Shown: in pieces, positions 62,246 to 64,000 of the stretch | Layout: each line of letters opens with the position of its first letter | Numbering within the stretch: position 1 is the stretch's first letter | DNA from: Promethearchaeota archaeon | Lineage (GTDB): Archaea; Asgardarchaeota; Lokiarchaeia; Sigyniarchaeales; SOKP01 | Direction: 5' to 3' | Length of the DNA: 64,000 nucleotides | Assembly: GCA_019057865.1 (NCBI GenBank) | Contig: JAHLWP010000010.1 | Location: 1-64,000, forward strand | Notes under the pieces: model-generated | Told to the model about the DNA's origin: nothing | What the model saw: only the letters and a program-made list of their open reading frames with translations | Database searches by the model: none | Program-made: the position numbers and the translations under genes

Positions 62246-62617
62246 TTAATTTGCTTTTAAAACTAATGTTATAGCTCTCGTTAAACGAATAATATCCATT
62301 ACTTTACCTTTCTCTACATTAATTTCTTCACGACTAATGGCATGCGTGAAATCACCTTTTCCATTACAAATTTTAACGATTGAATTAGGATCTCCAGACA
62401 TAACAATAACTGAATCTGATTTGGTCCCTTCTAACAAAATTGCTTTGCGGTTTTTAATATCTACATAAAAAGGGTCTTCAATATCAAGGTTGAATTGAAA
62501 TGACATTTCCCAATCAACGTCCTTCCCAGCAATATTAGTTACAAAAACAACTTGAGCTTTTTCATTTTGGTTTATTTTTTCAATAATTTTTGTTAAATTA
62601 TCTCTTGCTATACCCAT
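62246..62617 (-). CDS. SCP2 sterol/lipid-carrier-like protein
   Basis: Size, beta/alpha pattern (FYVDIKN..A....G..SD...M.GD...G...I.V..G..MD) and thiolase-DUF35 context. Confidence 0.7.
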   Translation of the reverse strand: MGIARDNLTKIIEKINQNEKAQVVFVTNIAGKDVDWEMSFQFNLDIEDPFYVDIKNRKAILLEGTKSDSVIVMSGDPNSIVKICNGKGDFTHAISREEINVEKGKVMDIIRLTRAITLVLKAN

Positions 62618-62619
62618 TT

Positions 62620-63114
62620 TTACTTCCCTCCTTCATATTCAGGTTTATTAATCCAGTTTTCATATTCATCTTCTGGAACAAAGAAGAAATCTGTCATTTT
62701 CCCTTCTCTTACTTTGTTAAAAACAGCTCTAACTCTTCTTCCTTTTTTAATCTTAGAAGGAACTAAATTTTCTGAAAAAATTCCTTGAAGTAATGCGGTT
62801 TCTGCTCCATCTAATTTTATAAAGCCTATACTATAAGGTACGGCTTTTATAAATGCAGAAGTTGTATACCATACAATTGTGCTAACTTCTATAGTTCCTG
62901 TTTGGTTCAATTCTACCCATTTAGCAGGAGCAAAACAATCAGAGCAATTGATCCTTGGAGGCATCCATGTCTTTCCACATTTAGTACATTTTGTGCCCAA
63001 TAGTTTTTTATTTTTCATTAATTCTAAAAAGAATTTGGATTGTCCTCCCATTGTGTATTTGTAGTTGATCCTTATTACATCTCTTATTTGATGCTCCTGA
63101 AATTCTTCGCTCAT
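62620..63114 (-). CDS. DUF35 Zn-ribbon/OB-fold protein
   Basis: CTKCGKTWMPPRINCSDC; ATGA overlap with the upstream thiolase. Confidence 0.9.
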   Translation of the reverse strand: MSEEFQEHQIRDVIRINYKYTMGGQSKFFLELMKNKKLLGTKCTKCGKTWMPPRINCSDCFAPAKWVELNQTGTIEVSTIVWYTTSAFIKAVPYSIGFIKLDGAETALLQGIFSENLVPSKIKKGRRVRAVFNKVREGKMTDFFFVPEDEYENWINKPEYEGGK

Positions 63115-64000
63115 GGTTTTTTCAACCCCTCCTCATTTGTCATTACTATAACCGCAGCATATGCCGCTCCAGGGCCTCCTATTGAGTGAGCAATAGCTCT
63201 GCCATTTTCAATTGTTTTTATTTGATGCTTTCCAGCATCCTCTCTAAGCTGAAGTGCTGCTTCACCTGTAGACATTATCCCGGTAGCACCAACAGCATGA
63301 CCACATCCAATTAATCCACCGCAAGGGCAACATGGTAATTCACCATCTAACCATGGCCCCTCCCCTGGTTTTTCAAAGGATTTTTCAATCCATGGACCAC
63401 CTTCCCCAAAAGGAACAAACCCAAGCTCCTCATAAGAGATGACTTCTTATCCAGAGAATATCGAACTGATATTCATTGTCCTGAGAAGGCATCATGGAGC
63501 TCTGCTAAATCAATTTGTTCCTTTATTTTATTATAGTCTAAGCCTGCCATCTTATACGCGGCTTTTGCAGCAAAAATATTTGAATATAACCTTCCCATAT
63601 CTTCTCTATTTCCTATAAAACAATCGGTATTTGCTGCTGCGACACCAGTAATCCAAATCGGCTTTTCAATTTTTAATTCTCTTACTTTTTCTTCACTTGC
63701 GAGAATTAATGCTGCTGATGCTTCTGAATATAAACAACAATCAAGCATCTTGAAGGGATGACAAATTATCCTTGAGTATAGGACATCATCTAAGGAAATT
63801 TTCATAGGGGATTGTGCTTTTGGATTGAGCATAGCATTCCCATGGTTTTTTACGCTAACTTTAGCCAATTTTAACTAATTGTTAAGATTTAAAGCCATTT
63901 GTTCTTCGGTAGGATTACCGAATTCTTCATAATGGGCGTTTACCATAGAAACGTACGAGGTTGCTGCCATCATTCCCATAGGATATTTACGAAATATGTA
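63111..64000 (-). CDS. Thiolase-domain protein (5' end outside window) split by candidate BHB introns
   Basis: Removing 63861-63890 and 63449-63477 gives a continuous frame ...EEQMALVSVKNHGNA...DCCLYSE...ELHDAFSGQEVISYEELGF...GGLIGCGHAVGATG...AHSIGG...KKP*. Confidence 0.88.
63449..63477 (-). other. Candidate 29-nt BHB intron in thiolase mRNA
   Basis: Exon helix GAUG-c-CUUCU/AGAAG-u-CAUC, central helix CAGG/CUGG (one A.G mismatch), bulges AC|A and AU|A, intron hairpin GAAUAUC-AGUUC-GAUAUUC. Confidence 0.75.
63861..63890 (-). other. Candidate 30-nt BHB intron in thiolase mRNA
   Basis: Exon helix AAU/GUU, central helix GGCU/GGCU, bulges UU|A and AA|A, intron hairpin AAUcUUAAC-AAUUA-GUUAAaAUU; contains an in-frame UAG. 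Confidence 0.8.

What the first reader, a model, noticed from the sequence alone, without database searches (positions are those of the whole stretch)
63111..64000. Multiple tiny BHB-type introns in a protein-coding (thiolase) gene of a probable Asgard archaeon
Seen in sequence: the thiolase frame is broken at only two points, each by an insert of about 30 nt (one carries an in-frame stop, one causes a frameshift). Elsewhere the gene is intact, keeps its catalytic-region motifs and overlaps the downstream DUF35 gene by ATGA. The two inserts differ in sequence, yet both form hairpins and, with their flanks, adopt helix / 3-nt bulge / 4-bp helix / 3-nt bulge geometry. Cutting after the second nucleotide of each bulge restores frame and consensus residues in both cases. 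Established: archaeal tRNA splicing endonuclease EndA cuts BHB motifs in this way and RtcB ligates; cbf5 of some Crenarchaeota is the classic mRNA example. Inference: this lineage splices several micro-introns from a metabolic mRNA, which annotation pipelines would miscall as a pseudogene. That would matter for post-transcriptional control and for the question of intron origins near the eukaryote ancestor. I cannot confirm from here that it is undescribed.
Basis: partly seen in the sequence, partly recalled or inferred. Interest (0 to 1): 0.97.

Follow-up and report, generated by a model that had tools for sequence, protein, structure and literature searches.

The report
Three tRNA-type mini-introns in Asgard gene
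A thiolase-like gene of a Loki-type (Asgard) archaeon is broken by three inserts of about 30 bases shaped like tRNA introns, and about 40 related genes carry similar inserts with otherwise intact coding sequence, so the messenger RNA is very probably spliced, which is published for only one archaeal protein gene (cbf5).

Summary
The minus-strand thiolase-fold gene (contig C7 64460..63111) has three inserts, not two:
- A: 64016-63986, 31 nt, crossing the window edge.
- B: 63890-63861, 30 nt.
- C: 63477-63449, 29 nt.

Removing them gives an intact 419-aa frame. Most same-genus orthologues have no inserts, and alignment to them fixes the boundaries to the base. At those boundaries each insert has bulge-helix-bulge geometry: a 4-bp helix between exon -6..-3 and intron -6..-3, two 3-nt bulges, and an inner hairpin. 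Random windows match this in 0.03-0.65% of cases.

Across about 180 orthologous loci from public Promethearchaeota MAGs and metagenomes:
- 42 carry 1-4 such inserts of 28-35 nt at 10 recurrent positions.
- Every full-length one becomes an open frame after excision.
- The helices keep pairing through compensatory changes, including exon-intron ones.
- dN/dS is 0.02-0.07.
- Introns are better conserved than synonymous sites.

The genome encodes a two-subunit EndA and RtcB.

Best reading, at about 0.85: these are EndA/RtcB-spliced mRNA introns with high turnover. The papers I could search describe this only for cbf5. Earlier notes of this scan report the same class in other genes and other genomes.

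The parts
63111..63448 (-). Exon 4 of the thiolase-fold gene. It includes the stop TGA (63111-63113), which overlaps the ATG of the next gene. It encodes the Thiolase_C_1 part with the GCGHAVGATG motif.
   Evidence: Pfam PF22691 with E 5e-15.
63449..63477 (-). Intron C, 29 nt, phase 1. The central helix is CAGG/CTGG (3 of 4 pairs, one A.G). The bulges are AC|A and AT|A. There is a 7-bp inner hairpin and a 5-7 bp exon-exon outer helix.
   Evidence: (E -9.3, null fraction 0.0003). A homologous intron sits in L040 at the same site.
63478..63860 (-). Exon 3 (383 nt).
   Evidence: It is 84-93% identical to orthologues.
63861..63890 (-). Intron B, 30 nt, phase 2, with an in-frame TAG. The central helix is GGCT/GGCT (4 of 4 pairs, two G.U). 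The bulges are TT|A and AA|A. The inner hairpin has 9 bp with one C.A mismatch.
   Evidence: (E -4.9, null fraction 0.0065). The family alignment has 96% of cells paired and two covarying pairs.
63891..63985 (-). Exon 2 (95 nt).
63986..64000 (-). The 3' part of intron A. The whole intron is 31 nt, phase 0, and runs on to contig position C7 64016, beyond the window. The central helix is TACG/CGTA (4 of 4 pairs). The bulges are AA|A and AA|T. There is an inner hairpin, and the outer helix is only 1 bp (relaxed HBh' form). Exon 1 lies at C7 64017-64460 with a GTG start.
   Evidence: (E -6.0, null fraction 0.0038). Homologous introns occur in L059, L073 and L171.
62620..63114 (-). Downstream, translationally coupled DUF35/ChsH2-like gene (zinc ribbon plus OB fold).
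   Evidence: Pfam PF12172 and PF01796.
62246..62617 (-). Third gene of the operon (123 aa), 2 nt downstream. It has no Pfam match here. Earlier notes on related genomes call it SCP2-like; I did not test that.

Best explanation
The three inserts are archaeal bulge-helix-bulge (BHB) introns inside a protein-coding gene.

Mechanism:
1. The operon is transcribed with the inserts in place.
2. In the pre-mRNA, the four exon bases at -6..-3 of each 5' junction pair with the four intron bases at -6..-3 of the 3' junction. The intron's own hairpin stacks on one side. In intron C an exon-exon helix stacks on the other side.
3. This presents two 3-nt bulges on opposite strands, 4 bp apart.
4. The host's two-subunit (alpha-beta)2-type splicing endonuclease EndA cuts after the second base of each bulge. 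RtcB joins the exons and probably circularises the intron.
5. Only the spliced mRNA encodes the 419-aa Cys-less thiolase-fold protein, which works with its DUF35 partner.

What is shown and what is inferred:
- Shown: the anatomy, the exact frame restoration, conservation and covariation of the structure, selection on the exons, and the presence of the enzymes.
- Inferred: the cleavage and the ligation themselves.

The introns belong to a population found in the orthologous gene of many Promethearchaeota. It occupies 10 positions, with 1-4 introns per gene. Some introns are old, being shared by genes only about 75% identical in DNA. The population also turns over, since genes 90-95% identical differ in intron content.
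For: 1. Exact inserts. 17 or more same-genus genomes have uninterrupted orthologues of 412-435 aa. DNA alignment shows G000 has exactly 31, 30 and 29 extra bases. Removing them gives a 419-aa frame.

2. Geometry. The BHB-constrained energies are reached by only 0.38%, 0.65% and 0.03% of 6000 random windows. Among product-equivalent cuts, only the BHB-rule cut scores. Two different inserts in genome G002 also fit (-17.7 and -6.4).

3. Not a pseudogene.
- 24 loci in the first set (80 metagenome loci plus 20 relatives' loci) and 18 of 80 species-genome loci carry 28-35 nt inserts at 10 recurrent sites.
- All are broken before excision and open after it.
- All 35 full-length intron-bearing CDS give frames of at least 400 aa.
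- dN/dS of G000 against its nearest orthologues is 0.02-0.07.

4. The structure is under selection.
- Over 34 unique introns, the central helix is 92% paired against 28-51% when the partner is slid. The inner helix is 81% against 31-48%. The first intron base is A in 33 of 34.
- The family at position 539 has 96% of cells paired against 17-45% slid, with A-U to C-G and U-A to C-G double changes.
- At position 381 a synonymous exon G/A change covaries with an intron C/T change in the central helix.
- Introns at the same site are 68-87% identical, while synonymous third positions of the same genes are 50-60% identical.

5. Machinery. There are two EndA paralogues. One is closest to the Aeropyrum, Sulfolobus and Pyrobaculum EndA chains (3p1z_B, 3ajv_B, 2cv8_A, 2zyz_B). 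There is one RtcB. Asgard EndA is published as (alpha-beta)2 with the loop that gives broad specificity (PMC5829648).

6. Genome context.
- ARAGORN finds only 18 tRNA genes in a 99.7%-complete genome, 12 of them with introns. This fits a heavy load of non-canonical tRNA introns.
- In a paralogue-based scan of split genes, insert sizes cluster at 29-35 nt (8 sites), with only three shifts of 1-2 bases.
Against:
- Intron C has an A.G mismatch in its central helix, and intron A has almost no outer helix. Both need an EndA of relaxed specificity, which is inferred from the literature and not measured for this organism.
- In some searches the cut was chosen as the best BHB energy within 5 or 11 nt of the alignment gap. 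The pairing percentages from those sets are therefore biased upward. The five introns with alignment-fixed cuts and the open-frame check are free of this bias.
- G000 has about nine thiolase-fold paralogues, so this one copy might be dispensable.
- My homology-free genome-wide scan showed no excess over shifted-cut controls.
- Archaeal transcription and translation are coupled, so it is unexplained how ribosomes are kept off unspliced mRNA.
Confidence: 0.85

Rival explanations
1. This is a decaying pseudogene. The gene was inactivated by small insertions and is dispensable because paralogues exist. The hairpins and the BHB-like geometry are incidental.
For: Table-11 translation is broken in three places. 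About nine thiolase-fold paralogues exist in G000. Annotation pipelines call only fragments of such genes: 310-325 aa products in public protein sets end inside the position-922 intron.
Against: - There is no lesion other than the three ~30-nt inserts, and the spliced frame is intact.
- 42 related genes show only inserts of the same size class at the same 10 sites, and every one has intact exons.
- dN/dS is 0.02-0.07.
- Introns are more conserved than synonymous sites.
- Compensatory changes keep the helices.
- Intron sets are shared by genes only 75-76% identical in DNA, so interrupted genes have persisted for a long time without decay.
Confidence: 0.03
2. The inserts are structured selfish DNA elements (miniature mobile insertions with target-site preference). 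They are tolerated because something other than EndA removes or bypasses them, for example another RNA endonuclease and ligase pair, or ribosomal bypassing (hopping) as in phage T4 gene 60.
For: - Distribution on the gene tree is patchy: the minimum number of changes is close to the number of carriers.
- Intron content differs between genes 90-95% identical.
- Intron C and its L040 homologue end with an imperfect copy of the upstream exon bases, which looks like a target duplication.
- Each insert holds a hairpin, and B and the read-through of C carry a stop soon after the junction, as bypass elements do.
Against: - No matching take-off and landing codons exist. For A, GAA would have to land on AAA. 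For C, the only GGA...GGA pair is followed in frame by TAA (read directly).
- The three introns have no other copies in the genome, so they are not a repeat family.
- The conserved features are exactly those EndA recognises: a 4-bp helix, two 3-nt bulges and fixed cut sites. They are kept across unrelated intron sequences.
- No Rfam family matches.
Confidence: 0.06
3. The inserts are an assembly or binning artefact. They are not in the organism's DNA, or the interrupted copy comes from a contaminant.
For: The genome is a draft of 87 contigs with 5.15% estimated contamination. Raw reads could not be checked.
Against: Near-identical introns at the same sites occur in many independent assemblies from different studies and sites, for example intron B in L054, L055, L059 and L140, and intron A in L059, L073 and L171. 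The contig has the genome's usual 30% G+C, and the window is an exact part of a 118-kb contig.
Confidence: 0.01

Closest known systems
BHB intron in the cbf5 (pseudouridine synthase) pre-mRNA of Crenarchaeota (Watanabe 2002; Yoshinari 2006; Yokobori 2009, PMC2738675)
   Same: [quoted passage not shown] Presence and absence are patchy among related species.
   Different: cbf5 is described in these papers as a single intron in one informational gene of Desulfurococcales and Sulfolobales, and it has been verified at RNA level. Here there are three introns in one metabolic gene, up to four in relatives, and 10 positions in the gene family. The lineage is Asgard (Promethearchaeota), and there is no RNA evidence yet.
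Non-canonical, multiple tRNA introns of Asgard archaea (PMC11291895; bioRxiv 10.64898/2026.10.13.758758) and of Thermoproteales
   Same: The motif class, the small size, repeated gains at BHB-competent sites, an unknown route of arrival, and the (alpha-beta)2 EndA background are the same.
   Different: Those papers treat tRNA genes only. The preprint's focal intron-rich classes are Jordiarchaeia and Atabeyarchaeia, not the Loki-type lineage found here. Here the host RNA is an mRNA, so the reading frame and coupling to translation matter.
IRE1/RtcB unconventional splicing of HAC1/XBP1 mRNA in eukaryotes
   Same: An mRNA is spliced by an endonuclease that cuts stem-loops and by an RtcB-type (or Trl1) ligase, without a spliceosome, and the splice changes the reading frame.
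   Different: The endonuclease (IRE1) and the motif are different. The event is regulated by stress and occurs in a single gene. This comparison rests on general knowledge and was not tested here.
Translational bypassing elements (T4 gene 60; 'byps' of Magnusiomyces mitochondria)
   Same: Short (27-55 nt) non-coding inserts lie in otherwise intact genes and often hold a hairpin and a stop.
   Different: Those elements need matching take-off and landing codons and are not removed from the RNA. No such codon pairs exist here (direct reading).

Membership tests
Archaeal BHB intron (EndA substrate) | Two 3-nt bulges on opposite strands, separated by a 4-bp helix | tested here: met
   A has TACG/CGTA, 4 of 4 pairs. 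B has GGCT/GGCT, 4 of 4 with two G.U. C has CAGG/CTGG, 3 of 4 with one A.G. Over 34 unique related introns the helix is 92% paired against 28-51% in slid controls.
Archaeal BHB intron (EndA substrate) | Flanking helices h and h' (canonical hBHBh'), or at least one of them (relaxed HBh' or hBH) | tested here: met
   An inner hairpin is present in all three. The outer exon-exon helix is strong in C (5-7 bp), 3 bp in B and 1 bp in A. So A is the relaxed HBh' form.
Archaeal BHB intron (EndA substrate) | Cutting after the 2nd base of each bulge and joining the exons gives the functional product | tested here: met
   The spliced CDS is 419 aa, collinear with intron-less orthologues. Other product-equivalent cuts do not fit the motif. 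All 35 full-length intron-bearing relatives give open frames.
Archaeal BHB intron (EndA substrate) | The host encodes the splicing endonuclease and the RtcB ligase | tested here: met
   Two PF01974 paralogues at C71:81890-82114 and C69:38574-38822. Their closest solved chains are crenarchaeal EndA chains. RtcB is at C75:110910-112217, 561 bits.
Archaeal BHB intron (EndA substrate) | Spliced RNA junction, excised or circular intron, or in vitro cleavage observed | not testable with these tools
No identical intron-less product was found in public protein sets.
Thiolase (acetyl-CoA C-acetyltransferase), for the host gene | Nucleophilic Cys in the N-terminal domain | tested here: not met
   Aligned to the archaeal thiolase 6esq_A, the Cys of AACASG is Gly (TGGATGG). 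It is Gly in 157 of 157 orthologues. The gene is a Cys-less thiolase-fold protein paired with a DUF35/ChsH2-like gene, not a pseudogene feature.
Translational bypass element | Matching take-off and landing codons flanking the gap | tested here: not met
   Direct reading: no matching pair restores the frame. For C, the GGA...GGA pair is followed in frame by TAA.
Self-splicing group I/II intron or known ribozyme | Match to a curated RNA family, and sufficient size | tested here: not met
   The inserts are 29-31 nt. The Rfam scan of the gene gave only one chance-level miRNA hit.
MITE-like repeat family | Many copies of the same element in the genome | tested here: not met
   Each intron has only its own full-length copy in G000.

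The most novel reading that the evidence does not exclude
Loki-type Asgard archaea (Promethearchaeota) maintain a dynamic population of EndA/RtcB-spliced mini-introns in ordinary protein-coding genes. A gene can carry several introns. They recur at a limited set of sites, are shared across deep divergences, and are gained or lost between close relatives, possibly by a homing-like transfer of the intron together with flanking exon bases. On this reading 'genes in pieces' that need RNA splicing before translation are routine in the closest prokaryotic relatives of eukaryotes, and standard annotation systematically miscalls such genes as fragments or pseudogenes.
Probability: 0.6. Interest if true: 0.92.

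Novelty: new variant of a known kind. Interest (0 to 1): 0.85.

Why it matters
- In the papers I could search, endonuclease-spliced introns in archaeal protein genes rest on one example, cbf5 in Crenarchaeota.
- Here a metabolic gene carries three such introns. Its gene family carries ten intron positions across dozens of public Asgard genomes, all seemingly unreported.
- If RNA data confirm splicing, three things follow.
  - Asgard gene catalogues and metabolic reconstructions are undercounting genes that are called as pseudogenes or fragments.
  - Archaeal mRNA splicing becomes a general layer of gene expression that must be reconciled with coupled transcription and translation.
  - Gain, loss and site preference of introns in protein genes become directly testable in the lineage nearest to eukaryotes. 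These introns are of the tRNA type, not the spliceosomal type.

Tried and rejected
- **Homology-free genome-wide scan** (BHB motif plus fusion of two open frames). Counts equalled those of controls with the 3' cut shifted by 1-2 nt, for example 18 against 11-21 at the strictest setting. The scan is swamped by operon junctions and misses genes with short exons. It gives no estimate of the number of introns in the genome and is not evidence either way.
- **Essential single-copy gene argument via leuS.** The genome has a fragmented leuS copy on C49 and also an intact 967-aa copy on C1. leuS therefore does not prove that splicing must occur.
- **Search for an identical intron-less or spliced product.** The search for homologous proteins (longer proteins) found nothing above 92% identity. 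No truncated and full-length protein pair came from one allele.
- **Ribosomal bypassing.** No take-off and landing codon pairs exist.
- **Repeat or MITE family.** The introns are single-copy.
- **Known RNA families.** None matched.
- **An apparent insert in L021 near the 5' end**. This is an alignment artefact, since its unspliced frame is already 419 aa.
- **L040.** It was first misplaced at position 911 by the pairwise alignment. It belongs at position 922 and is homologous to G000 intron C.

Full report
**What is there.** The window is the first 64 kb of a 118-kb contig (C7) of a draft genome of 4.26 Mb and 30% G+C. On the minus strand a thiolase-fold gene starts at C7 64460 (GTG) and ends at 63111. 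Its TGA overlaps the ATG of a DUF35/ChsH2-like gene.

Translation under table 11 is broken three times, not twice:
- Insert A: 64016-63986, 31 nt. It straddles the window end and shifts the frame.
- Insert B: 63890-63861, 30 nt, with an in-frame TAG.
- Insert C: 63477-63449, 29 nt, with a frameshift.

Removing the three gives a 1260-nt CDS of 419 codons with no internal stop.

**Exact boundaries from intron-less orthologues.** A search of 40 related genomes with exon 3 found orthologues 84-91% identical in protein. In 17 or more same-genus genomes they lie in one open frame of 412-435 aa. DNA alignment shows that G000 simply has 31, 30 and 29 extra bases. One relative, G002 (locus L019), has two different inserts of 34 and 31 nt near site A.

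**Geometry.** In a BHB motif the exon bases -6..-3 before the 5' cut pair with the intron bases -6..-3 before the 3' cut. Each strand then has a 3-nt bulge that is cut after its second base. At the alignment-defined cuts:

| Intron | Central helix | Inner hairpin | Outer helix |
|---|---|---|---|
| A | TACG/CGTA, 4 of 4 pairs | 5 bp stem abutting the central helix | 1 bp |
| B | GGCT/GGCT, 4 of 4, two G.U | 9 bp with one mismatch | 3 bp |
| C | CAGG/CTGG, 3 of 4, one A.G | 7 bp | 5-7 bp exon-exon |

- With the motif enforced, the folding energies are -6.0, -4.9 and -9.3 kcal/mol. Only 0.38%, 0.65% and 0.03% of 6000 random windows of the same genome reach these values.
- Where several cuts give the same product, only the BHB-rule cut scores.
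- The two G002 inserts, whose cuts the alignment fixes uniquely, score -17.7 and -6.4.

**The wider gene family.** I fetched 80 orthologous loci from metagenome contigs and 80 from species-representative genomes. Most of the latter are titled Promethearchaeota or Promethearchaeia archaeon, the Loki-type Asgard lineage.
- 24 loci in the first set (with the relatives) and 18 in the second carry 1-4 inserts.
- There are 57 unique intron-plus-flank sequences, all 28-35 nt with a mode of 30.
- They sit at ten positions of the 1260-nt reference: 32, 378, 381, 441, 444, 457, 531, 539, 918 and 922. G000's A, B and C are positions 444, 539 and 922.
- Every intron-bearing gene is broken as it stands and becomes a full-length frame after excision at the BHB cuts. 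All 35 full-length intron-bearing CDS passed a 400-aa filter.

**Selection.**
- dN/dS between G000 and its nearest orthologues is 0.02-0.07, with dS of 0.7 up to saturation.
- Introns at the same site are 68-87% identical (median per site). Synonymous third positions of the same gene pairs are 50-60% identical.
- Over 34 unique introns the central helix is 92% paired (28-51% when the partner is slid by 1-3 nt). The inner helix is 81% paired (31-48% slid). The outer helix is only 56% paired (28-50% slid). The first intron base is A in 33 of 34.
- These percentages are somewhat inflated, because the cut was picked as the best BHB energy near the alignment gap. The second-best energy was usually far worse, and the open-frame check is independent of that choice.
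- In the ten-sequence family at position 539, 96% of cells pair (17-45% slid), and two pairs switch between A-U and C-G or between U-A and C-G.
- At position 381 a synonymous exon change (GAG/GAA) covaries with an intron C/T change in the central helix. At position 378 a T-A pair becomes C-G.
- Across sites, the intron's 3' tetramer is complementary to whatever exon tetramer lies at -6..-3.

**Turnover.**
- On a gene tree the minimum number of gains and losses is close to the number of carriers (for example 6 for 6 at position 378, 7 for 8 at 539, 8 for 14 at 922). Saturation makes that tree weak.
- More robustly, genes 95% and 90% identical in DNA differ in intron content. Genes only 75-76% identical share the sets {381, 539} or {441, 457}.
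- Position 922 holds two unrelated intron types. G000 and L040 carry one and the remaining carriers the other.
- The three G000 introns are single-copy in the genome.

**Machinery and genome context.**
- G000 has two EndA paralogues of 200 and 207 aa. One is closest to the Aeropyrum, Sulfolobus and Pyrobaculum EndA chains (3p1z_B, 3ajv_B, 2cv8_A, 2zyz_B). It has one RtcB.
- Asgard EndA is published as (alpha-beta)2 with the L1 loop that confers broad specificity (PMC5829648). Pre-mRNA splicing of cbf5 was linked to the hetero-oligomeric enzyme (Yoshinari 2006, cited there).
- ARAGORN finds only 18 tRNA genes, 12 of them with introns, in a 99.7%-complete genome. This is what heavy non-canonical interruption would produce.
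- A paralogue-based scan of split genes gave insert sizes of 0 (single in-frame stops) or 29-35 nt (8 sites, including a second thiolase paralogue on C7 near 117.7 kb and a fragmented leuS copy). Only three shifts of 1-2 bases were seen.

**Rivals.**
- A pseudogene is excluded in practice by the intact exons in 42 interrupted genes, the low dN/dS, the conserved introns and the covariation.
- Bypassing lacks take-off and landing codons.
- No Rfam family matches.
- An assembly artefact is excluded by the same introns turning up in many independent assemblies.
- The remaining doubt is that no RNA was examined.

**Literature.** Searches and reading found mRNA BHB introns only for cbf5 in Crenarchaeota (PMC2738675). 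For Asgard archaea they found only tRNA introns (PMC11291895; bioRxiv 10.64898/2026.10.13.758758). The library lacks most subscription journals, so absence is not proof.

**Earlier notes of this scan.** They report the same class in other genes of this genome (cooS, leuS, acs and others), in this very stretch, and in other Asgard genomes. I used them as leads only.

**The host gene.** It is not a classical thiolase. The nucleophile Cys is Gly in all 157 orthologues, and the gene is coupled to a DUF35/ChsH2-like gene.

**Verdict.** This is a new variant of a known kind: endonuclease-spliced mRNA introns, here multiple, recurrent and dynamic, in an Asgard metabolic gene.

Noticed in passing
window 63449-63477 with 63478-63490; locus L040:1869-1925: Intron C, and its homologue in L040, ends with an imperfect copy of the exon bases just upstream of the 5' cut (TTCTCAGGA ... 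TTCTCTGGA). It looks like a target-site duplication and might be a footprint of how the intron arrived. MAFFT at first placed the gap accordingly, but that reading gives an in-frame TAA.
   Followed up: partly
G000 contig C7 near 117736 (minus strand), outside the window: A second thiolase-fold paralogue on the same contig is split by an insert estimated at 30 nt. It has a 4-of-4 central helix and an 11-bp hairpin.
   Followed up: partly
G000 C49:5023-7935 and C1:28378-31242: There are two leuS loci. One is intact (967-aa frame, 936 bits). One is in at least four pieces and has at least one 34-nt insert with good BHB geometry at C49:5689. It is unclear whether both belong to the same organism; estimated contamination is 5.15%.
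   Followed up: partly
G000 C14:44528, C23 (162861, 234910), C37:8941 and others (strand-specific coordinates): 19 genes with paralogues are interrupted by a single in-frame stop. Twelve are TGA. Four of those lie in one family with the context DDC(S/A/G)I-stop-(I/V)(L/C)(G/A)P, which suggests selenocysteine. Seven are TAA.
   Followed up: partly
whole genome G000: ARAGORN detects only 18 tRNA genes (12 with an anticodon-loop intron) in a genome scored 99.7% complete. Most tRNA genes are presumably hidden by non-canonical or multiple introns.
   Followed up: no
window 63111-64000 plus C7 64017-64460; all orthologues: The 'thiolase' has Gly in place of the nucleophile Cys in 157 of 157 orthologues. 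It sits in a coupled operon with a DUF35/ChsH2-like gene and a 123-aa ORF. This resembles Cys-less Ltp2-type aldolase and DUF35 pairs rather than an acetoacetyl-CoA thiolase.
   Followed up: partly
loci L019, L039, L092, L096, L097, L121, L159: Introns at positions 441 and 457 occur together and leave a 16-nt micro-exon (GAATATCCGATGGGAA-type) between them. The position-441 intron varies from 28 to 35 nt, mostly through loop and stem-top length.
   Followed up: partly
public protein sets, P0001, P0008, P0057 and others: Gene callers have deposited 300-325 aa 'thiolase' fragments that end ...HDAFSGHYLS, which is a read-through into the position-922 intron. One such cluster has 58 member sequences. 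Databases therefore already hold many mis-called products of these interrupted genes.
   Followed up: partly
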